In this document: one piece after another, positions 52,790 to 63,375 of the stretch
How the letters are laid out: every line of letters starts with the position of its first letter
How positions within the stretch are numbered: position 1 is the stretch's first letter
Assembly (NCBI GenBank): GCA_963770565.1
Contig: CAVYQE010000002.1
Location: forward strand, 704,001 to 768,000
DNA length: 64,000 nt
From: an uncultured Actinomycetota bacterium
GTDB lineage: Bacteria > Actinomycetota > Actinomycetes > JAFAQI01
Direction of reading: 5' to 3'
Position numbers and translations under genes: made by a program
Notes under the pieces: generated by a model
What the model saw: the letters and a program-made list of their open reading frames with translations, nothing else
What the model was told of the DNA's origin: nothing
Database searches by the model: none

Positions 52790-52814
52790 ATGGTGGGCGA
52801 GGGGGGAGTTGAAC
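52790..52814. repeat. att core repeat (tRNA-distal end)
   Basis: atggtgggcgaggggggagttgaac, identical to 63289-63313 at the tRNA 3' end. Confidence 0.95.
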
Positions 52815-52858: not shown

Positions 52859-52953
52859 GCGCTCTGACCTGCGGTTTTGTTTTCGATCTTGCTAAGGCGT
52901 GGTGATCAACATTGAGCCGCTTCTACCGGTCCGGTAGAAGTTCCGGTAGAAGT
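52859..52953. repeat. Left-end arm-type repeats
   Basis: gcgctctgacctgcg (also at 63269-63283); ccggtagaag twice direct and once inverted. Confidence 0.75.
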
Positions 52954-53684: not shown

Positions 53685-54098
53685 TCACGCAGTCGGTCCT
53701 TCCCAAAACAGTTCGAGCTGGATGTTGTCTGGATCCCGAAACGTGATCATCCGATTCGCGGTGTAGGAGGGAGACTTCACACCTGAGTGACCGACGTCCA
53801 GGCCGTCGAGCCAACTCGCCCAACTGTCCAACTCATCCTCCGATGAAACGAAGAACTCAACGTGATCAAGGCCCGTCCGGGCCTCGTTGAAGGGGTGACT
53901 GCTGTTCTGGCCGTGGCTTAGCAGACAGAGCGTGAAGCCGGAGTGGCCGTTCTGAAGGCAGATCTGCTCGACTCGACCCTCGACGTCCATCTGCCGTCCG
54001 GTCACTTCGAAGCCGAAGACGTTCTGGTACCAGGTGGCACTCACCGTCGGATCACGGACGGTGAGAATCAGGCCAAGCCGACCAGTAATCGCGGGCAT
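53685..54098 (-). CDS. VOC/glyoxalase-bleomycin-resistance family protein
   Basis: LTVRD...S..WY..VFGF, GLDHVEF, FRDPDNIQLELF; ATG at 54098. Confidence 0.88.
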   Translation of the reverse strand: MPAITGRLGLILTVRDPTVSATWYQNVFGFEVTGRQMDVEGRVEQICLQNGHSGFTLCLLSHGQNSSHPFNEARTGLDHVEFFVSSEDELDSWASWLDGLDVGHSGVKSPSYTANRMITFRDPDNIQLELFWEGPTA

Positions 54099-54285
54099 GG
54101 TCGAAGTCTGCCGCAGGCGTCTTCTTAGGTCACCCGCACGACGAACAAATGTGCCGTTCCCCCGCACTACCCGGCGTTCTGCTGGACAGGATGCACCCTT
54201 CGTCGAGACGGCTGCGAAGTCCTTTGATTGACGGCCGCCGCGACCGGCGTCCAACCTCTCACCGTGCTGCGTCGTCTTTTCGATT

Positions 54286-54861
54286 GTGAGGCGATTGGGT
54301 TGGCGTGGAGCAGGCACCGCGGTGCTGCTGAGCCTCGTCGCGCTGTGGTTGCCAGCGTCCGCGTCCGCGGCGGCACCGCACCCGAAGCCGACCGTTTCAG
54401 TCAACCCTTCTAGTGGCCTTCGCGACGGGGAGCAGGTCACTGTCCGGGTTCGTGGGTTTCCGAGCGGAGAGAAGGTCTTCCTTTCTGAGTGTGCTCGACG
54501 AAGTGAGGCGAACGGCGACGGGTGCGGAAGCGAGCTCGCCGCTCAAACCATCGGCTTCACCAATGCCGCAGGACGCGCAACAGTGAAGTTCACAATCAAC
54601 TCGCATGCGGCGATCGGACCACTAACACTAACGCGCGCTGGTCGACCGCCTCGGCGGCCGTGCGTTGCTTGCGTGCTGGTCGCGACCGCTGGCGTGGATG
54701 CGGATCACCCGCACCCTGGTCTCTTTGGGGTCGCTGCTCTGTCGTTCGGTTCTGTCACGCTCCCGTTTACTGGCCTGCCGACTGAGGCGCTGGCGGTCGT
54801 GGGTGCACTAACGCTCGGTATTGGCATCATCGTCACCGCGACGGCTCGTCACCGCCGTTAG
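54286..54861 (+). CDS. Neocarzinostatin-apoprotein-like domain protein with LPxTG sortase signal
   Basis: Signal peptide; PTVSVNPSSGLRDGEQVTV..RGF...ECA...C; LPFTG followed by TM and RHRR tail. Confidence 0.78.
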   Translation: MRRLGWRGAGTAVLLSLVALWLPASASAAAPHPKPTVSVNPSSGLRDGEQVTVRVRGFPSGEKVFLSECARRSEANGDGCGSELAAQTIGFTNAAGRATVKFTINSHAAIGPLTLTRAGRPPRRPCVACVLVATAGVDADHPHPGLFGVAALSFGSVTLPFTGLPTEALAVVGALTLGIGIIVTATARHRR

Positions 54862-55889: not shown

Positions 55890-57635
55890 TTATTGTTCGC
55901 GGTCGTGTGTCCTGATCCATGCCGGTGGCAGTTCCCCGTGAACGAGAAGTCCGTCGCCAACCCGTAGGCGGCGTAGTAGGTCGGCCGGCGCGTACGGCAC
56001 TGAGGTCGCGACCCGCTGCGCTTCCTGGCCGCCGCCCGGATCAAGCAGCTGGCGACGGGTCAGGTCCGCGCGGACGTGTTCGTTGCCAACGAGAACGCTC
56101 AGGTAGTCGGTGGTCGTCGTGTCGGTCAACCCGCTGGGGTAGAACAGTTTGCTCCGGTGGTTGGTGAGGACGCTGTCGGCGTCGCGGCCGTAGGTGGTGT
56201 CGAGCTGTGCCCGTGACTGCCACACGGTGACGAGTTGGATACCGGCTCCGCTGACGGTGGCTGCCCATTGCGGCAGCTTTGGTAGCGGTGTGTTGGCTGC
56301 TTCGTCGCAGACCACGAGCAGCCGAGGGTCGAGCGGCACGCCACGACGGTTGTATGCGGTGAACGCGTCGCTGATCAGGTCATGCAGGACCGCAGCGAAC
56401 ACCAGGCCGATGCGGGTGTCGTCACCGAGAGGTGCGACGAGGTAGAGCGTGTTGTTGCCGCCGAGTAGCCAGTCGAGGGTGAGCTGGCAGTCGTTCGCGC
56501 TGTCCGCGATTGCGGGGTCGGCCCAGGGCCAGACGGCGTTGCGGGCGGTGGCGTAGACGCTGCTGGTGGTGCGCGGGTCGCTGCTCCACTGGCCGTGAAG
56601 CCAGCCTTGGACTTGGGTGGCGGCGAGTGCGACCTGTGGGTCGTCGTGATCGGTGAGCAGCCGGACGAGTGGTGCGAGGGTGCCGCCGTTGCCGTCGCCG
56701 GGTCGGTCGAGGTCGAGCACCCACCGGACGACGTGTCGCATCGTGTGGCCGTCGGTGTTGGCGGCGGTGTAGAGCATGCCGGCGAGGAGTTGTTCGGCTT
56801 GACCGCGCCAGAACTTCTCGCCGGGTGTGTGGTCGTCGGCGCCGGTGCGGGCGAGGATCGCGGCGGCGTTGACAGCACCGGACAGGGTGCGGGCGGCGCG
56901 CAGCGGGCTCCAGGTGCTGCTGGGCAGGCCGGTGACGCCGAGCGGGTCGAACACTCGGACCTCACCGCGTTGGCGGCGGGCGTCGATGGTGGCGCGGAGC
57001 AGGTCGGCTTTGACGCTGGACACGATCGCCGGTCCGGTCCAGGCGCTGACGCCGGTGATCAGGCCGGTGGTCTTGCCGGACTGGCTGGGCCCGAAGACGG
57101 CGACGGCGCCGGCGACGCCGCGCCGGCCACGGTCGCCCATCGCTTCTGTAGACAGGTAGCCCCGGCCGGTGCGGGCGAGGACGAACCGGTTGACTGTTGG
57201 TTTGCGGGTGTAGAGCGGCGTGAGATCGCGGCGGGTCGCCAGTCGCGGTTGGGTGGCCACCCCCAGGCGGCGTCGCTTGTCGATCGGTACCTGACGGTGC
57301 CGACTGGCGAAGGACAAGGCGGCCAGCGCCACAGCGATGAGCGCGGCGATGACGAGCGCGGTGGCGGTCCAGTACGGGATGGGGCCGGGCAGGTTTCCGC
57401 GTACCCGTGCAGGCCAGGCGAGAGCGGGATCGCCGAGGTGATGGGTCATCGCGGGCAGCGAGCTGACCGCCTCGATCAGGCTGGCGTGCAGCAATCTGGC
57501 GCGGCCGAGCAGTGCGGCGAGGTTACCGATCAGCCACTGCGCAAGGCCGATGGCGAGGACGGCGCTGAGCAGGAGCGCGATGATCAGGTCGATGCCATCG
57601 ACCCCAGTGGACCGGTTGGCCGTGGGGCGGGTCAT
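55890..57635 (-). CDS. Type IV coupling protein (VirD4/TraG/TraD family)
   Basis: Two N-terminal TMs; Walker A GPSQSGKT, FDP, W.PL, FW, Walker B VVCDEAAN, QSRAQL..YG. Confidence 0.92.
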   Translation of the reverse strand: MTRPTANRSTGVDGIDLIIALLLSAVLAIGLAQWLIGNLAALLGRARLLHASLIEAVSSLPAMTHHLGDPALAWPARVRGNLPGPIPYWTATALVIAALIAVALAALSFASRHRQVPIDKRRRLGVATQPRLATRRDLTPLYTRKPTVNRFVLARTGRGYLSTEAMGDRGRRGVAGAVAVFGPSQSGKTTGLITGVSAWTGPAIVSSVKADLLRATIDARRQRGEVRVFDPLGVTGLPSSTWSPLRAARTLSGAVNAAAILARTGADDHTPGEKFWRGQAEQLLAGMLYTAANTDGHTMRHVVRWVLDLDRPGDGNGGTLAPLVRLLTDHDDPQVALAATQVQGWLHGQWSSDPRTTSSVYATARNAVWPWADPAIADSANDCQLTLDWLLGGNNTLYLVAPLGDDTRIGLVFAAVLHDLISDAFTAYNRRGVPLDPRLLVVCDEAANTPLPKLPQWAATVSGAGIQLVTVWQSRAQLDTTYGRDADSVLTNHRSKLFYPSGLTDTTTTDYLSVLVGNEHVRADLTRRQLLDPGGGQEAQRVATSVPYAPADLLRRLRVGDGLLVHGELPPAWIRTHDREQ

Positions 57636-60024
57636 GCGATCTCGGGTGCGTCGAGAATGTCGATGGCGGCGGTCTTGGCCCGGCTGACCTCGAGCGCAGC
57701 GATGACGTGGGCCAGGTCGTGGGTGCCGTCCTCACCGACGTCGAGACTGCTGGCGACCGCGTAGAGGTGGTTGTGGGTCCGGCCGCGGGTGAGCCCGGTG
57801 TAGCCGAGTTCGGCGTAGAGGCTGTCGTCGCCGAGCAGCAGCGCGACGTCGCAGGTCAGTCCTTGGGTCTTATGGACGGTGCGGGCGTAGGCGTGAGACA
57901 GGTCGTCGGTGACGTAGTCCATCGGCACCTCGACCTCACGGTCACCGATGCGCAGCCGGATCGCGGGGTCCTCAGCGACGATGCCGGTGATGACGCCGAG
58001 GTCGCCGTTGATCAGGCCGAGGTCGTAGCGGTTGCGCCCGGCGAGCACCTGATCGCCGATGCAGAACCGTCGGTCGTCGACGAGTGCGACGAGCGGGCCG
58101 AGCTGCCCGGTGGCTTCGAGCCGGTTGTGCGCGCGGATGTTGAGGTCTGCCGCGTCGGCGCGCCGGACAGCGCCCATGACGGCGTCGGCGCCGTTCTCGC
58201 GGTGGGTGAGCCAGTCATTGACCATCTCCTCGCGCAGCGCGTCGCTGTTGGTCGCGACGGTGACGCGGCCGCCGCGATCGAGGTGCCGGACGGCGAACCG
58301 GGCGTGGCCGTGGCGCAGCGCGGTGACGGCGAGACGTTCTTCCGGGTCGTGCTGGCGGCGGTTCTCGACGAGCTCGACGCGCGGCAAGCGGTTCGACAGT
58401 GCGGTGAACAGACCACCGGCCTCGACCGCGGGGAGTTGTTTCGGGTCGCCGGCCAGGATCAGCTTGGCCTCGGCGCGTGCCGCCTCGGTGGCGAGGCTGG
58501 CGAGTAGCCGGGTGCCGAGCATCCCTGCCTCATCCACGACGAGCACGTCGCCGGGTCGCAAGCTGGACGCTGACCGGTGGCGAGGCCTCGTTGCAGGGCG
58601 TGTCCGGTGGTGGCGGGGATGCCCGATCCGGCGGTCAGTTCCCGGGCGGCGCGGGCGGCGAGCGCCGTGCCGATCACCCGGTGCCCGGATGCTTCGAACG
58701 CGTCGCGGACGGCGTCGAGTGAGAACGTCTTGCCGGTGCCGGCGTGCCCGACGACAACATCGATACGTCGACCGCTGCTGCACAGCTGGCTCGACCATGT
58801 GTCGCTGCTCGGTGGACAGTGACGGGCGATCCGCAACGGCCGCCATGACTGCCTGCGGGTCTGCGGTCAGCCGCGGGTCGGGCGGCTGCTGCGGCGAGCG
58901 CGACCACGCGGGCTTCCAGCTCGAGGATCTCCGGTGTCGTCCAGCGGTCGTCGCCGAGCGGGATCGCCAGGTCACCGGCGAGGTAGGCGTCGGTTCGGGT
59001 GAGGATGTCGGTGACGGTCGCGCCTTGGCGGGCGGCGCGGGCGACGGCGCGGATCACGTCACCGCGGTCGTAGCTGGCGTGCTCGCTCGTCACGGCGACG
59101 GCGATCTCCTCGTCACTGACCCGCAGGATCGGGGTGCGGGGGACGCGGACCACCTGGGACAGGTCGAACCGGGCGTCGAGCGCCCGGGTCCGCCACTGTT
59201 CCCGCAGTTGTGCCTCGGATACTCCCTTGGGCTTCGGTTTGCGGGTGGTGAGGGTGGCGATCCGGGCTGCGCGGCCGGTGTGCGCGCCGAGGCGGTCCAT
59301 CTCGGCGACGATCTCGACCCGGCGACGGGAGAACGCGCGGCGCATCGCCGGGGAGATACCGGCGACCTCGGCGACGCCGTGCCGGTCGATCTCGTCGAAC
59401 ACGACCCCGAGCCGCACGGTCAGCTCGCGGCGCAACGCGGCCTGGAAGATCGCCTCGGCGGTGTACCGCTCGTCATAGAGCAGCCGCGCGTCCAACGCGG
59501 TCCGCCGCCCATCCGGGCCTTCGGTGACGTTGAACACGACCCAGTGCAGGTGGATGCCCGGATCACCAAGCCGGCTGGTCCGGTGCCGGAACACCACCCC
59601 GAGGAAGCCGCTGCCGGGTTCGGTGCTGCGCGCCGGCGTGCCCTCGGCGGACCGCGCAGGCGGTCTGCTCGAGGTAGGTCTCGACCTGCGCGCGGGCGGC
59701 GTACAGAGCGGCTTCGACCTCGGCGGCATCATGCTCGCTGCCGAGCGCCCACAGCAGCGACACCGATTTCGACGGGGACAGGGTCAGATCGAACCCGGTG
59801 ACCGTCGTGCCATGTTCGGTCAATCGACCGCCGGCCGGGTGCTGGCCGGCGAACGCGGCGGCGAGCGCCTCCCGCTCGGCCGGTCCGGTCAACCCGTCAG
59901 CGGCGGCCAGAGTTCCGACCCAGGCGCCGGGTGCGGTCCCGGCTTCGGACAGGTAGTCCTCGCGGCCGTCGATGACCTCGCGCTCGTAGTAACCGAGGTT
60001 TTGGCATTTTCCGATCGAGAGCAT
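57632..60024 (-). pseudogene. MOBF (TrwC/TraA-like) relaxase-helicase split by four frameshifts
   Basis: MLSI...GYY...DYL, GFDLTLSPSKSVS, HRTSR.GDP..HLH, FSRRR, GHAGTGKT, VVDEAGM, GDPKQL, HAYARTVHKTQG, found in successive frames. Confidence 0.88.
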
Positions 60025-60046
60025 GACGGCGGCGTCCTCACCTTCA

Positions 60047-60062
60047 GGTGCATTGGTGTGGA
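60047..60062 (+). other. Candidate oriT nic site
   Basis: GGTGCATTGGTGT-GG just upstream of the relaxase start; resembles MOBF nic sites of F and R388. Confidence 0.4.
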
Positions 60063-60131
60063 GGTTGCTGATCTGTCCGGCGATCGAGGCGCGGGAGGGA
60101 TCGAGTGCCGCGGTCGGGCGGCGGCGAGTGG

Positions 60132-60368
60132 TCAGGTGGCGGGCTGCGCTTCGGTCGCGGGGCGGCCGGTCAGGACGCGTTCGATGAACGCGGCCAGCGC
60201 CGCGCGCGGGATGCGTTTCTGGCAGCCGAACCACACGAAGGGCAGCCCGGACTCACCGCCGGACCGGTCGTATTCCACGGTGAGCTCGTAGACCTTCGAC
60301 CGGCCCAGCTGCAGGGCGGTCGCGGTCTGCGCGACCGTGAGGAATGGGGGGAGATCGTCTAGCATCAT
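60132..60368 (-). CDS. Excisionase-like HTH_17 protein
   Basis: LPPFLTVAQTATALQLGRSKVYEL...KRIPRAAL; GAGGTG RBS. Confidence 0.88.
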   Translation of the reverse strand: MMLDDLPPFLTVAQTATALQLGRSKVYELTVEYDRSGGESGLPFVWFGCQKRIPRAALAAFIERVLTGRPATEAQPAT

Positions 60369-60378
60369 GTCACCTCGC

Positions 60379-60435
60379 TGTACATCACAACCGTGTGGCA
60401 TTGTCGCTACCATAACAACACGGTTGTCAAGTACA
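60379..60435. promoter_or_regulatory. Divergent-promoter operator
   Basis: tgtac-N3-acaaccgtgt-N21-acacggttgt-N3-gtaca, overlapping a minus-strand TTGACA. Confidence 0.62.
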
Positions 60436-60456: not shown

Positions 60457-61152
60457 GTGGCGCGACGACGCGCAACGAAGACGGCCCTATCGTTTCGGTC
60501 GTCCGGCGGCCTGGATGTGAATGCGGTGGTCTCCTACAACCTGCGCACCATCCGGCAACGGCAAGGCTGGACCCAGGAAGGCGTCGCGCAGCGGCTGGCG
60601 CAGCTGACCGGGCACGAACTGCCGCAAGCATCCATCTCGGCGATGGAACGCGGATTCGAAGGCGGCCGGCGTCGCCGCTTCGACGCCCACGAGCTGTATC
60701 TGCTCTCCGTCGTGTTCGGCGTACCGATCGTCTACTTCTTCATCCCGCCGCCGACAGACGAGCGCGAGGACCGCTACCTGGCCGACACCGAACGACCGGT
60801 CCGCGAGTTGTACGCCGCGGTGCTCGGCAGCGAAGGAGAACTCAACGAACTCGACGAGCGGCTCGCCGCCATCGGGCTGACCAGTCCGGAGGAGGCCGAG
60901 CAGACACTCGCCGCGATCTGGGGCCCCGGCGGCACCGCCAATAACTGGTACCCACACTTCCGCACCTGGCGCAAACGCCGACTGCTCGCCCTCGCCCGCG
61001 ACTACGGCGACCGCCTCGACGAGATCGCCGAGTTCCTCGCCGCCTTCGGCACCGAACTCAAAAACGTCGGACCCCAGGCATACCTACAGATGAAGGCTCA
61101 CCGCGCCGGCGAAGACGTCCTCCCGGCAGCCACCAAACCCGAGGAGAAGTAA
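60457..61152 (+). CDS. XRE-family HTH regulator with C-terminal extension
   Basis: NLRTIRQRQGWTQEGVAQRL...ISAMERG; GGAGG RBS. Confidence 0.86.
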   Translation: MARRRATKTALSFRSSGGLDVNAVVSYNLRTIRQRQGWTQEGVAQRLAQLTGHELPQASISAMERGFEGGRRRRFDAHELYLLSVVFGVPIVYFFIPPPTDEREDRYLADTERPVRELYAAVLGSEGELNELDERLAAIGLTSPEEAEQTLAAIWGPGGTANNWYPHFRTWRKRRLLALARDYGDRLDEIAEFLAAFGTELKNVGPQAYLQMKAHRAGEDVLPAATKPEEK

Positions 61153-62493
61153 ATGCGCGGGTCGATCGTGAAAAAAGGCAGCCGGTACTACGTCAAGCTC
61201 GAACTCGACCCCGACCCCGCGACCGGCCACCGGCGCCAGCGGTGGCACTCCGGGTACACGACGAAACGCGAAGCCGAACGGGCCCGGGTCGATCTGCTCT
61301 CCAAACTCGACCGCGGCGAATACGTCGTCCCGACCCAACAGACCCTCGGCGAGTTCCTGACCGAATGGCTGATAACGATGCGGCGTCAGGTACGCCCGTC
61401 CACCCACGACTCCTACCAGCGCAACATGCGCCTGCACGTCATCGACCACATCGGCCGCACCAAGATCACCCGCGTCGACGCCGGCACCCTGAACGCGCTG
61501 TACGCAGAGCTGTTGATCTCCGGCCGTCGACCGTCCTCCCGAGCAGGCGCCGGCTACTCGTCAGCTGTCGTCGACCGCGCCCTGGCGCTACGGGCGGCTG
61601 GGATGAGCCTGAGCACGACCGCCAAGCGGCTGCGCGCCGAAATCCCTGAGGCATCCGCGATCACCAAGGACACGCTCGCAACCTTGCTACGGCGTCGCCC
61701 GGCGACCGGGCCTAGCGATGACCTGCCGACGATCGGCCTGTCGCCGCGGACGGTTGCTTACGTCCACACGATCCTGCACCGGGCGTTCAAGGACGCCGTG
61801 CGCTGGGGCAGGCTGGCCCGCAACCCAGCCGACGTGGCCGATCCGCCCCGCGGCTCCCACGCCGCCGAAATCCAAGCCTGGGACGCCGCGACCCTCCGCG
61901 GGTTCCTCACCCTCAGCAAAGACGAGGGCGGCGGCTACCACGCGCTGTGGGTGCTGCTCGCAACGACCGGCTTGCGCCGCGGGGAGGCGCTCGGTCTGCG
62001 GTGGAGCGACGTCGATCTCGAAACCGGCCGCGTTCGCATCGTTCAGACGGTGATCCAGATCCGAGGCAACGTCACAATCGGGGAGCCCAAGACCGACCGC
62101 GGACGGCGAGCGATCACCCTCGATGACGGCACCGTCGCGGCACTGCGCGCACACCGGCGCGAGATGAACGAGCAGCGACTTCTTGTCGGCGCCGACTTCA
62201 CCGATCGCGACCTGCTGTTCCGGCTGCCGAGCGGGGAGCCGCTGCACCCGGACGCGGTCAGCGCGACTTTCGAGCGACAGGTCCGACGGTACGGGCTACC
62301 GCGGCTAACCGTGCACGGCTTGCGCCACACCTGGGCGACGCTGGCGTTGGAGAGCGGCGTTCACCCGCGGGTCGTTCAGGAGCGCCTCGGTCACTCCACC
62401 ATCGCGATCACGCTCGGAATCTACAGCCACGTCTCGCCGACGCTCGACAGCGACGCTGCACGCACGATCGCCGCGTTGGTACTGCCGCAATAG
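61153..62493 (+). CDS. Tyrosine integrase
   Basis: N-terminal arm-binding domain (MRGSIVKKG...TKREAE); catalytic GLRRGE, PKT, HGLRH, LGH, IYSH. Confidence 0.95.
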   Translation: MRGSIVKKGSRYYVKLELDPDPATGHRRQRWHSGYTTKREAERARVDLLSKLDRGEYVVPTQQTLGEFLTEWLITMRRQVRPSTHDSYQRNMRLHVIDHIGRTKITRVDAGTLNALYAELLISGRRPSSRAGAGYSSAVVDRALALRAAGMSLSTTAKRLRAEIPEASAITKDTLATLLRRRPATGPSDDLPTIGLSPRTVAYVHTILHRAFKDAVRWGRLARNPADVADPPRGSHAAEIQAWDAATLRGFLTLSKDEGGGYHALWVLLATTGLRRGEALGLRWSDVDLETGRVRIVQTVIQIRGNVTIGEPKTDRGRRAITLDDGTVAALRAHRREMNEQRLLVGADFTDRDLLFRLPSGEPLHPDAVSATFERQVRRYGLPRLTVHGLRHTWATLALESGVHPRVVQERLGHSTIAITLGIYSHVSPTLDSDAARTIAALVLPQ

Positions 62494-62588: not shown

Positions 62589-62768
62589 ATGTTCGAGCAG
62601 CACGCCGCGCCTAACGACTTGGAAGTCGCCAAGGCCTCCTATTGGCAATCACCTGTGCTCAGCGTCCTCATGGCCGACGTCGAGCCCTGGGGCGAGGACG
62701 AGTCCTTCTCGATTGCCGACCTCACTGACGAGGAGTGGGAAGCCTTCGTCGACGCTCTTCGAGAGTGA
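62589..62768 (+). CDS. Putative antitoxin, 59 aa, acidic C-terminus (not in ORF track)
   Basis: GGGAGA RBS; MFEQHAAPND...LTDEEWEAFVDALRE; its TGA overlaps the toxin GTG. Confidence 0.65.
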   Translation: MFEQHAAPNDLEVAKASYWQSPVLSVLMADVEPWGEDESFSIADLTDEEWEAFVDALRE

Positions 62769-63184
62769 GCGACGGCACAGTCCTGCTGGACACCAACATA
62801 TTCAGCGCCCAACTCAACCCCCGGTCCCGGCTACCGGCGCTTTACCGGAAACACTTGGTGCGAGCCCGGCTTGCCGTCCCCTTCCAGGTCGTCGGCGAGG
62901 TGCGGTTCGGCGCTCTCCAAGCGGGTTGGCAGCAGAAGCGCCTCGATGAGCTCGAGCGATTGGTCCGCCGGGTCGGCGTGCTCCCCGTGGATGACGCCAC
63001 GGTTTGGGCTTACGCCGAGCTACGACTCGAATGTCTGCGGACAGGACATCCGCTCCATCAGAAGAACCACAATGGCGACCTGTGGATCGCCGCCACATCC
63101 GTTCGTTGGGAGATTCCGCTCGTCGCACACGACGGCGTCTTCAAGAACTGCCCTGGGCTCGACCTGAGAACTGAGCTGACGTAG
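62765..63184 (+). CDS. PIN-domain (VapC-like) toxin
   Basis: VLLDTNIFS, VGEV, NGDLWIAA, LVAHD. Confidence 0.9.
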   Translation: MSDGTVLLDTNIFSAQLNPRSRLPALYRKHLVRARLAVPFQVVGEVRFGALQAGWQQKRLDELERLVRRVGVLPVDDATVWAYAELRLECLRTGHPLHQKNHNGDLWIAATSVRWEIPLVAHDGVFKNCPGLDLRTELT

Positions 63185-63223: not shown

Positions 63224-63283
63224 CCGGTAGAAGTTCGGTAGAAGTCGGCCTATTTTCGAGCCGCCATAGCGCTCTGACCTGCG
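63224..63283. repeat. Right-end arm-type repeats
   Basis: ccggtagaagt and tcggtagaagt, plus gcgctctgacctgcg, matching the left end. Confidence 0.75.
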
Positions 63284-63289
63284 AAGATA

Positions 63290-63375
63290 TGGTGGGCGAG
63301 GGGGGAGTTGAACCCCCACGTCCTTACGGACACACGGACCTGAACCGTGCGCGTCTGCCATTCCGCCACTCGCCC
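63290..63375 (-). tRNA. tRNA-Leu(CAG)
   Basis: GGGCGAG acceptor stem, CACGG-TTCAGGT-CCGTG anticodon arm, long variable arm, GGTTCAACT T-loop, encoded CCA. Confidence 0.96.

What the first reader, a model, noticed from the sequence alone, without database searches (positions are those of the whole stretch)
61525..61734. Tyrosine integrase with an extra HTH inserted in its core-binding domain
Seen: 70 aa lie between LNALYAELLISG and GLSPRTVAYVHTILH, including YSSAVVDRALALRAAGMSLSTTAKRLRAEIPEASAITKDTLATLLRR, and all catalytic residues are intact. From my knowledge of this family the linker is normally only a few residues. The insert pattern (R..G.S....A..L ... T...LL) resembles the HTH of serine-recombinase DNA-binding domains. 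Inference: a chimeric integrase with an additional DNA-binding module that could alter specificity or directionality, or replace an accessory factor.
Basis: partly seen in the sequence, partly recalled or inferred. Interest (0 to 1): 0.72.

Follow-up and report, generated by a model that had tools for sequence, protein, structure and literature searches.

The report
Integrase with built-in extra HTH module
A tyrosine integrase of a small mobile element carries a conserved, well-folded three-helix DNA-binding-type module spliced into its core-binding domain; this is the hallmark of a large undescribed integrase clade in uncultured actinobacteria, and what the module does is still untested.

Summary
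The integrase (61153-62493, 446 aa) has 70 residues (125-194, nt 61525-61734) between core-binding helix 3 and the GLSPRT helix 4. Relatives have only 12-36 residues across the wider segment 118-200.

The insert is not peculiar to this gene. All 120 closest listed protein clusters (66-92% identity) carry it, as do three deeper lineages. The next relatives (about 385 aa, 40-54% identity) lack it.

It has three parts:
- a conserved basic Gly-rich arm (124-136);
- three helices (137-181, pLDDT about 95);
- a variable linker (182-194).

Arm and helices are as conserved as the catalytic domain. Fold search gives only three-helix HTH-type domains (small-terminase DNA-binding domain, Myb/homeodomain-like, Tc3, Tn3 resolvase) at Z 5-7.1. 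Sequence links to resolvase HTH_7 or PF07508 stay below threshold.

The insert sits directly before the helix that in Tn1549 integrase makes the key DNA contacts. I therefore infer an extra DNA contact beside the core site; this is not shown.

A Xis-like gene is still present, so the insert does not replace it. The host element is a 10.5-kb integrative mobilizable element in tRNA-Leu(CAG). I rate it a new variant of a known kind, of moderate interest.

The parts
61153..62493 (+). Tyrosine integrase gene, 446 aa (P0001)
   Evidence: ORF; Pfam PF14657, PF14659 and PF00589; best solved-structure match is Tn1549 Int, E 2e-13, TMt 0.77-0.79
61183..61311 (+). Arm-binding (AB) domain, residues 11-53
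   Evidence: PF14657 E 3.8e-6; model has three strands and a helix
61342..61521 (+). Core-binding domain helices 1-3, residues 64-123
   Evidence: PF14659; helices 65-76, 82-100 and 110-123
61522..61560 (+). Conserved basic Gly/Ser-rich arm of the insert (GRRPSSRxGxGYS, residues 124-136)
   Evidence: G124 and R125 invariant; R126, S129, R130, G132, G134, Y135 and S136 in at least 46 of 53 rows; pLDDT about 77
61561..61695 (+). Three-helix HTH-like module (helices 137-148, 153-163, 172-181)
   Evidence: pLDDT 95-97 in the full-length model and 87-93 folded alone; fold matches to HTH DNA-binding domains at Z 5-7.1; helix 3 nearly invariant, R180 and R181 in 53 of 53
61696..61734 (+). Variable, low-confidence linker back into the CB domain (residues 182-194)
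   Evidence: Majority-residue fraction 0.32-0.33; pLDDT about 59
61735..61803 (+). CB helix 4 (GLSPRTVAYVHT..., residues 195-217)
   Evidence: Aligns with the Tn1549 Int helix that holds N150, R153 and Y160, its DNA-contact residues (PMC5871717 passages)
61942..62436 (+). Catalytic domain, residues 264-428 (R275, K313, H388, R391, H414, Y424)
   Evidence: PF00589 E 1.4e-25; alignment to Tn1549 Int
63289..63313 (.). attR core, 25 bp identical to attL; covers the 3' end of tRNA-Leu(CAG)
   Evidence: blastn 25/25; whole-genome pattern search finds only these two copies
52790..52814 (.). attL core
63290..63375 (-). tRNA-Leu(CAG), the integration target
   Evidence: ARAGORN; the same tRNA lies downstream in 11 of 60 related loci scanned
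63225..63245 (+). Two direct arm-type repeats CGGTAGAAGT on the int-proximal arm
   Evidence: 5 copies in the window, all in the att arms; 1 of 100 shuffles reach 5; conserved in 11 of 11 related loci
52919..52953 (.). One inverted and two direct arm-type repeats on the far arm
   Evidence: same layout in three other elements
63269..63283 (+). 15-bp repeat GCGCTCTGACCTGCG, 5 bp from the attR core
   Evidence: 0 of 300 shuffles reach the match
52859..52873 (+). Second exact copy of the 15-bp repeat, 44 bp inside attL
60132..60413 (-). Xis-like HTH_17 gene, divergent from xre-int
   Evidence: PF12728 E 7.5e-6, 26.6 bits against a cut-off of 27; homologue found in 51 of 80 loci
60457..61152 (+). 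XRE-type HTH_3 protein (231 aa); its stop abuts the int start codon
   Evidence: PF01381; homologue in 51 of 80 loci; alignment A5

Best explanation
This is the integrase of a 10.5-kb integrative mobilizable element inserted in the 3' end of tRNA-Leu(CAG). It belongs to a large actinobacterial clade, mostly Acidimicrobiia, of Tn916/Tn1549-type tyrosine integrases.

In this clade an autonomous module of about 58 folded residues has been spliced into the loop between helices 3 and 4 of the core-binding domain. The module is a basic Gly-rich arm followed by a three-helix HTH. It is tethered by a variable linker of about 13 residues.

Most likely the module is a third DNA-binding element, besides the arm-binding and core-binding surfaces. 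It would contact DNA next to the core-type site and so lengthen or tighten recognition of attP and/or the tRNA gene.

Shown: the insertion, its clade distribution, its conservation, its confident three-helix fold and its position in the domain. Inferred: DNA binding, the DNA target, and any effect on specificity or directionality.
For: - Insertion relative to the nearest relatives.
- Clade-wide presence: all 120 listed clusters at 66-92% identity are 441-471 aa with 98-100% coverage, and 265 tblastn-confirmed stretches occur in species-representative genomes.
- Conservation of arm and helices (0.81 and 0.75) equals that of the CB and catalytic domains (0.78, 0.80), against 0.33 for the linker.
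- Helix 3 is almost invariant, including positions that are not in the hydrophobic pattern: K172, D173, T174, S177, R180, R181.
- Net charge of residues 124-182 has a median of +4, range 0 to +8.
- AF2 gives three helices at pLDDT 95-97.
- Nearly all of the 50 listed fold matches are three-helix HTH, Myb, SANT or homeodomain-like domains; the best is Z 7.1.
- The insert ends one residue before the helix that aligns with the Tn1549 Int helix bearing N150 (base contacts), R153 (base flipping) and Y160. The module is therefore anchored at the DNA surface.
- In this small sample, arm-repeat variants go with changes in the N-terminal AB domain, not in HTH helix 3. The HTH probably does not read the arm-type repeats.
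Against: - No DNA-binding test of any kind was possible, and no model with DNA.
- Fold-search scores (Z 5-7.1; Foldseek E above 2) lie in the range the tool itself calls common for small helical models.
- All sequence matches to HTH families are below threshold.
- SANT-type three-helix domains bind proteins rather than DNA.
- Insert-less relatives also integrate next to tRNA-Leu genes (L053, L070), so the module is not needed for that kind of target.
- No covariation between helix 3 and any DNA motif was found. The main clade has an almost invariant helix 3 and an invariant target, which is uninformative.
Confidence: 0.55

Rival explanations
1. The module is a protein-docking surface rather than a DNA reader. 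It would recruit or sense a partner: the co-transcribed XRE-type protein, the Xis-like protein, a host factor, or a neighbouring integrase protomer in the synapse. That would couple recombination to regulation or set directionality.
For: - Some of the three-helix fold matches are SANT or Myb-like protein-binding domains.
- The conserved surface of helix 3 would suit any invariant ligand.
- By my count from the table, an XRE homologue lies directly upstream of int in 43 of 51 insert-bearing loci with at least 1.9 kb of upstream DNA, and in 0 of 10 insert-less loci. The int start codon abuts the xre stop codon.
Against: - The co-occurrence is confounded by descent, since most insert-bearing loci form one clade.
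- It rests on tblastn at E <= 1e-5 with one query, so divergent XRE genes may be missed.
- The basic arm, the positive charge and the anchoring at the DNA-contact helix fit DNA better.
- Eight insert-bearing loci have no XRE hit.
Confidence: 0.25
2. The module is a second arm-type or accessory-site reader. It would bind the pair of direct repeats (GCGCTCTGACCTGCG here, CTGACCWG-like elsewhere) that lie between core and arm-type repeats on both attP arms. This would do the architectural job that IHF-like bending proteins do for lambda integrase.
For: - Two exact 15-bp copies occur only in the two att arms; 0 of 300 shuffles reach the match.
- In 2 of 3 other elements the best arm-to-arm 12-mer falls at the same positions: 9-12 bp before the core block and 45-47 bp after it.
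- The int-side copy lies 5 bp outside the 25-bp identity block, and the insert's flanking linkers of about 13 residues each might span that distance; this is my estimate, not measured.
Against: - Scores in the other elements are not significant on their own (21 of 300, 191 of 300, and in one element the best match is elsewhere).
- The far-arm copy is 44 bp from the core, too far for a core-bound protomer unless the DNA is bent.
- In several elements the int-side sequence looks like a terminator hairpin for the tRNA.
- Xis or a host protein could bind these repeats instead.
Confidence: 0.12
3. The module is a tolerated decoration in an insertion-prone loop, kept for folding or stability, with no specific ligand.
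For: - The same loop varies from 12 to 36 residues in relatives. P0177 has a Lys-rich extension there and P0138 another.
- The tree needs at least 2-3 gains or losses.
Against: - Conservation equals that of the catalytic domain over sequences down to 41-51% overall identity.
- Helix 3 is almost invariant, while the adjacent linker drifts freely.
Confidence: 0.08

Closest known systems
Tn916/Tn1549-type integrases (IntTn916 subgroup of arm-binding tyrosine recombinases; solved Tn1549 Int 6EMZ, 6EN2)
   Same: AB (Arm-DNA-bind_4), SAM-like CB and catalytic domains; best structural match (E 2e-13, TMt 0.77-0.79); catalytic residues align.
   Different: Tn1549 Int has a short loop where this protein has 70 residues. 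Tn1549 inserts with low site specificity (paper passage), whereas this clade targets the 3' end of tRNA-Leu(CAG).
Insert-less sister integrases of Actinomycetota (P0125, P0126, P0128 and others, about 385 aa)
   Same: 50-54% identity over AB, CB and catalytic domains, with the same LL..G...GLSPRT frame. Some also sit beside tRNA-Leu genes, and L078 and L053 have the same Xis-like gene.
   Different: 12-36 residues across segment 118-200 instead of 79-83. No XRE homologue found upstream in 0 of 10 loci.
C-terminal DNA-binding domain of small serine recombinases (Hin, gamma-delta and Tn3 resolvase; Pfam HTH_7)
   Same: A basic Gly/Arg arm followed by a three-helix HTH. That these arms lie in the minor groove is recalled knowledge, not from a call. 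Tn3 resolvase 5cy1 aligns at Z 5.0 over 46 residues with 20% identity.
   Different: No significant sequence match (E 0.065-0.086, below cut-off). The helix 2 to helix 3 connection is about 8 residues long in the model. The module is internal to a tyrosine recombinase rather than C-terminal to a serine catalytic domain.
Tyrosine recombinase relatives with extra DNA-binding modules: RitA (two CB domains) and TnsF/Tsy (zinc fingers plus tandem CB-like domains)
   Same: Lineage-specific addition of DNA-binding capacity to the CB-CAT core (passages of PMC8138268, and PMC10293859).
   Different: Those are duplications or N-terminal fusions. Here an unrelated HTH fold is inserted inside the CB domain.
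N-terminal HTH DNA-binding domain of phage small terminase (G20c, 4XVN)
   Same: Best fold match of the isolated insert: Z 7.1, 54 residues, rmsd 2.8, 20% identity. Also the top Foldseek rows.
   Different: No significant sequence relation. The score lies in the range the tool flags as possibly a common arrangement.

Membership tests
Tyrosine recombinase / phage integrase (PF00589) | Catalytic R-K-H-R-H/W set plus the Tyr nucleophile in the conserved fold | tested here: met
   PF00589 at 90.4 bits against a cut-off of 27.1. R275, K313, H388, R391, H414 and Y424 align with Tn1549 Int and are invariant or nearly so. Fold match.
IntTn916 subgroup (arm-binding tyrosine recombinases) | N-terminal AB domain of three beta-strands and one helix | tested here: met
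   PF14657 at 26.8 bits against a cut-off of 22.3. The model has strands 3-8, 11-18 and 28-35 and helix 38-54. The feature is as described in PMC8138268.
IntTn916 subgroup (arm-binding tyrosine recombinases) | Beta-stranded insertion between strands 2 and 3 of the catalytic domain | tested here: inconclusive
   The model has strands 293-295, 299-303, 306-310 and 320-322. I could not map them onto the published topology without coordinates.
Resolvase HTH (Pfam HTH_7, PF02796) | Score at or above the gathering cut-off of 23.8 bits | tested here: not met
   13.4-13.8 bits, E 0.065-0.086; 1 of 16 inserts. A whole-genome scan with PF02796 did not report the int locus at E <= 0.001.
Large serine recombinase 'Recombinase' domain (PF07508) | Significant profile match | tested here: not met
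   2 of 16 inserts, best E 0.1.
Three-helix HTH / homeodomain-like / Myb-like fold | Three-helix bundle superposable on solved HTH DNA-binding domains | tested here: inconclusive
   Z 7.1 to 5.0 for the 50 listed rows, nearly all HTH, Myb or SANT-type. Foldseek TMq about 0.6 but E above 2. The tool warns that Z under 8 may be a common arrangement.
Integrative mobilizable element | Integrase with att repeats, plus relaxase and coupling protein, without a full mating-pair apparatus | tested here: met
   25-bp att repeat 10.5 kb apart. TrwC relaxase/helicase, T4SS coupling protein and Xis-like gene. No other transfer genes among the ORFs scanned. The relaxase reads in three frames, so it may be broken.

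The most novel reading that the evidence does not exclude
The integrase carries its own architectural or site-selecting factor. The inserted arm-plus-HTH module would read a third class of attP site, the paired CTGACCWG-type repeats between core and arm-type sites, or else tRNA-gene DNA beyond the core. This would make the recombinase independent of IHF-like host bending proteins, and the co-transcribed XRE protein would tune it. That would be a three-way heterobivalent tyrosine integrase, a design not described for this family.
Probability: 0.12. Interest if true: 0.7.

Novelty: new variant of a known kind. Interest (0 to 1): 0.48.

Why it matters
Tyrosine integrases are thought to gain site specificity and directionality from two DNA-reading parts (arm-binding and core-binding domains) plus separate accessory proteins.

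A widespread natural clade with a third, tethered HTH placed at the DNA-contact helix would show another route to extended or self-sufficient site recognition. It would be a natural example for engineering integrases by domain insertion. It also gives a simple sequence marker for a family of tRNA-Leu(CAG)-targeting mobilizable elements that is abundant in uncultured Acidimicrobiia and other Actinomycetota.

If the module turns out to be only a docking or structural element, the finding is a modest annotation point.

Tried and rejected
- Sequence searches for the origin of the module led nowhere:
  - Pfam and NCBIfam on the insert gave nothing above threshold.
  - A profile search of PDB sequences gave only E >= 0.028 hits to designed repeats and unrelated proteins.
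  - A region-restricted search found only integrases, 16 of 16.
  - A stand-alone search with the insert profile (35-118 aa candidates) found 4 proteins, all integrase fragments.
  - tblastn against 50,697 phage and 72,556 plasmid records gave no match at E <= 1.
  - The ESM Atlas gave no usable hit.
- Complex prediction of the XRE protein (A5) with the insert (A1 residues 122-198) scored 0.03 against a mark of 0.32. The verdict was 'no answer', so it counts neither for nor against binding.
- Rfam at gathering threshold returned 0 matches for the whole window, not even the tRNA that ARAGORN finds.
- The look-up of sequencing runs found only partial holders (at most 0.40 of the words, all Logan contigs). 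They were never laid, so no habitat or activity claim is made.
- Literature: four searches and passages of PMC8138268, PMC10293859 and PMC5871717 showed no description of an HTH inserted in a CB domain. I read passages only, not whole papers. Supplements are closed, and Appendix Figs S1, S3 and S6 of PMC8138268 could show such an insertion.
- I considered that the HTH reads the arm-type repeats and think it unlikely, from the small covariation sample.
- I considered that the insert replaces Xis and rejected it.

Full report
**1. The observation**

The + strand ORF 61153-62493 encodes a 446-aa protein. Pfam finds an arm-binding domain (PF14657, residues 11-53), a SAM-like core-binding (CB) domain (PF14659, 64-116) and a phage-integrase catalytic domain (PF00589, 264-428, 90.4 bits). 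LNALYAELLISG ends at G124 and GLSPRTV starts at G195. The catalytic residues are in place: R275 aligns with R225 of Tn1549 Int, K313, H388, R391 and H414 are present, and Y424 lies in the IYSHV motif. They are invariant or nearly so in the family.

**2. It is a true insertion, and a clade character**

The word-indexed search gave 3553 proteins at E <= 0.001 among the 8000 candidates scored. The 120 listed have 66-92% identity, 98-100% coverage and lengths of 441-471 aa. In a 26-sequence sample every row carries the segment.

In the exhaustive search of 50%-identity representatives, only P0122 (63%), P0124 (51%), P0158 (43%) and some fragments match as one stretch across the region. Almost all other listed hits are 370-410 aa and match in two stretches, the second starting at query residue about 195. 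The alignment shows the pattern LL..G(R)...G-GLSPRT in these relatives.

In a 120-row alignment of 52 close relatives plus 67 representatives, chosen by me, segment 118-200 is 79-83 aa in 53 rows and 12-36 aa in 67 rows.

I built a quick maximum-likelihood tree with the insert columns removed. It used 84 of the 120 rows; 36 close relatives were thinned out. The main insert-bearing group comes out as one clade (15 of 15, support 99). P0124 sits beside it. P0158 pairs with the insert-less P0146 (support 95). At least 2-3 gains or losses are therefore needed, although stars on a quick tree deserve caution.

**3. What the insert looks like**

AlphaFold2 on the 120-row alignment gives mean pLDDT 91.2 and pTM 0.82. 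The insert forms three helices (137-148, 153-163, 172-181) at pLDDT 95-97. They are preceded by a less confident segment (124-136, about 77) and followed by a poor one (182-197, about 59). Folded alone on a 16-row alignment, the same three helices appear, with a short extra turn at 165-169 (pLDDT 87-93).

Conservation across the 53 insert-bearing rows, as majority-residue fraction, compares as follows:

| Segment | All 53 rows | 51 rows of the main group |
|---|---|---|
| Basic arm 124-136 | 0.79 | 0.81 |
| Helices 137-181 | 0.73 | 0.75 |
| Linker 182-194 | 0.32 | 0.33 |
| CB helices 1-3 | 0.77 | 0.78 |
| Catalytic domain | 0.79 | 0.80 |

The arm GRRPSSRxGxGYS and helix 3 (I-T-K-D-T-L-A-S-L-L-R-R) are almost invariant, and R180 and R181 are present in 53 of 53 rows. 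The distant P0124 and P0158 keep the pattern (G at the turn, hydrophobic core, terminal RR) with different surface residues.

**4. What fold, and related to what**

- Sequence methods give nothing above threshold. HTH_7 reaches E 0.065-0.086. Across 16 inserts the weak hits scatter over HTH_23 (3), PF07508 (2), HTH_38, HTH_7, HTH_3, MerR and others. The PDB profile search is empty of meaning.
- Foldseek finds no match at E <= 0.001. Its top rows are HTH DNA-binding domains: G20c small terminase, GcrA, Pax5 and Tc3, with TMq about 0.6.
- The exhaustive structural search gives Z 7.1 for the small-terminase N-terminal domain. A long run of Myb, SANT, TRF and homeodomain-like domains follows at Z 5-6.4, then Tc3 transposase (5.2) and Tn3 resolvase (5.0).
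- The tool warns that Z under 8 can be a common arrangement. I therefore read this as 'three-helix HTH-type fold', not as kinship with any one family.

**5. Where it sits**

The closest solved structure of the whole model is Tn1549 Int bound to DNA (E 2e-13, TMt 0.77-0.79). In the sequence alignment the helix that begins right after the insert (GLSPRTVAYVHT...) matches the Tn1549 helix GLSYKTINNDKR.... That helix holds N150 (the only base-specific contact), R153 (flips the first crossover base) and Y160, according to passages of PMC5871717. The module is thus anchored one residue from the main DNA-contact helix of the CB domain, on a linker of about 13 residues. This is the main reason, together with the basic arm and the positive net charge (median +4 for residues 124-182), to favour a DNA-contact role. 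I had no access to coordinates and no tool that folds protein with DNA, so this step is inference.

**6. The element**

A 25-bp sequence at 63289-63313, covering the 3' end of tRNA-Leu(CAG) (63290-63375, minus strand), is repeated at 52790-52814. These are the only two copies in the 4.4-Mb genome. Between them lie:

- an AAA_33 protein;
- a glyoxalase-family protein and a neocarzinostatin-family ORF;
- a T4SS coupling protein;
- a TrwC relaxase/helicase that reads in three frames;
- an HTH_17 Xis-like gene (minus strand);
- an XRE-type HTH_3 gene whose stop abuts the int start;
- int itself;
- a PIN-domain gene.

Arm-type repeats CGGTAGAAGT occur five times in the window, all in the two att arms. 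Of 60 related loci scanned, 11 have tRNA-Leu(CAG) downstream in the same orientation, all of them insert-bearing loci of at least 58% identity. More distant insert-bearing loci sit near tRNA-Leu(GAG) or (AAG). Insert-less ones sit near tRNA-Leu(GAG) or tRNA-Pro. All 11 show two direct arm-type repeats about 45 bp from the core. Three further elements recovered with both ends have the same far-arm layout.

**7. What the HTH might read**

Two arm-repeat variants (CGGTTGCAAA in L024 and L051; CGGTAGAGA in L031 and L035) go with changes in the N-terminal arm-binding strands. HTH helix 3 is unchanged or shows only an I-to-L change that is also seen with standard repeats. This small sample argues against the HTH reading the arm-type repeats.

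A third repeat exists. GCGCTCTGACCTGCG occurs exactly twice in the window: 5 bp from the attR core and 44 bp inside attL (0 of 300 shuffles). In two of three other elements the best arm-to-arm 12-mer, of the CTGACCAG type, falls at equivalent positions, but with scores that are not significant alone. It is a candidate site for the HTH, for Xis or for a host factor. I could not tell which.

**8. Accessory genes**

The Xis-like gene is found in 51 of 80 loci, including the insert-less L078 and L053, so the insert does not stand in for it. By my count from the table, the XRE gene is found upstream of int in 43 of 51 insert-bearing loci with at least 1.9 kb of upstream DNA, and in 0 of 10 insert-less ones. 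I excluded 18 loci with short flanks and the ambiguous L058. This is suggestive but confounded by descent.

**9. Verdict**

It is the signature of a large, undescribed clade rather than a single chimera. Its homology to serine-recombinase HTH domains is unproven, and its function is inferred. I found no description in four literature searches and in the passages read. I rate it a new variant of a known kind, with moderate interest.

Noticed in passing
window 52859-52873 and 63269-63283: An exact 15-bp direct repeat (GCGCTCTGACCTGCG) sits in both att arms, distinct from the arm-type repeats. Similar CTGACCWG-like pairs lie at equivalent positions in two of three other elements. It may be a third class of protein site in attP.
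   Followed up: partly
window 57632-60234 (minus strand): The TrwC relaxase/helicase reads as three overlapping ORFs in three frames (59563-60234, 58674-59732, 57632-58975). That means two frameshifts, a decayed gene or assembly errors.
   Followed up: no
window 60457-61152 and loci L001-L080: An XRE-type protein (HTH_3 plus a conserved C-terminal helical region of about 130 aa with no family) has its stop abutting the int start. It co-occurs with insert-bearing integrases (43 of 51 loci) and was not found beside insert-less ones (0 of 10).
   Followed up: partly
proteins P0166, P0177, P0138 (alignment A2): Related integrases carry other lineage-specific additions. P0166 and P0177 have a CxxC...CxxC zinc-ribbon-like insert in the arm-binding domain. 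P0177 has a Lys-rich extension and P0138 a 36-aa one at the same CB loop. This loop seems to be an insertion hot spot.
   Followed up: no
G000:C6:191766-193091 (locus L084): The same genome has a second insert-bearing integrase (69% identity) near a contig end. No tRNA lies in the 7.4 kb fetched, and the tRNA-Leu(CAG) core sequence occurs nowhere else in the genome.
   Followed up: partly
window 53685-54861: The cargo includes a glyoxalase/bleomycin-resistance-family ORF (minus strand) that overlaps by about 155 bp a plus-strand ORF with a neocarzinostatin-family match (E 6.5e-9). At most one of the overlapping parts can be real as called.
   Followed up: no
window 62590-63184: A PIN-domain gene (62735-63184) and a small upstream ORF lie between int and attR. 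This is probably a toxin-antitoxin pair that stabilises the element.
   Followed up: no
window 61184-61268 (minus strand) and whole window: ARAGORN calls a tRNA-Ala(GGC) inside the int coding sequence, probably a false positive. Rfam at gathering threshold reported no RNA at all in the window, not even the tRNA-Leu.
   Followed up: no
loci L009, L010, L013: Insert-bearing integrases of 66-68% identity lie on contigs binned as Burkholderiales, Gemmatimonas and Chloroflexota MAGs. This could be horizontal spread or mis-binning.
   Followed up: no
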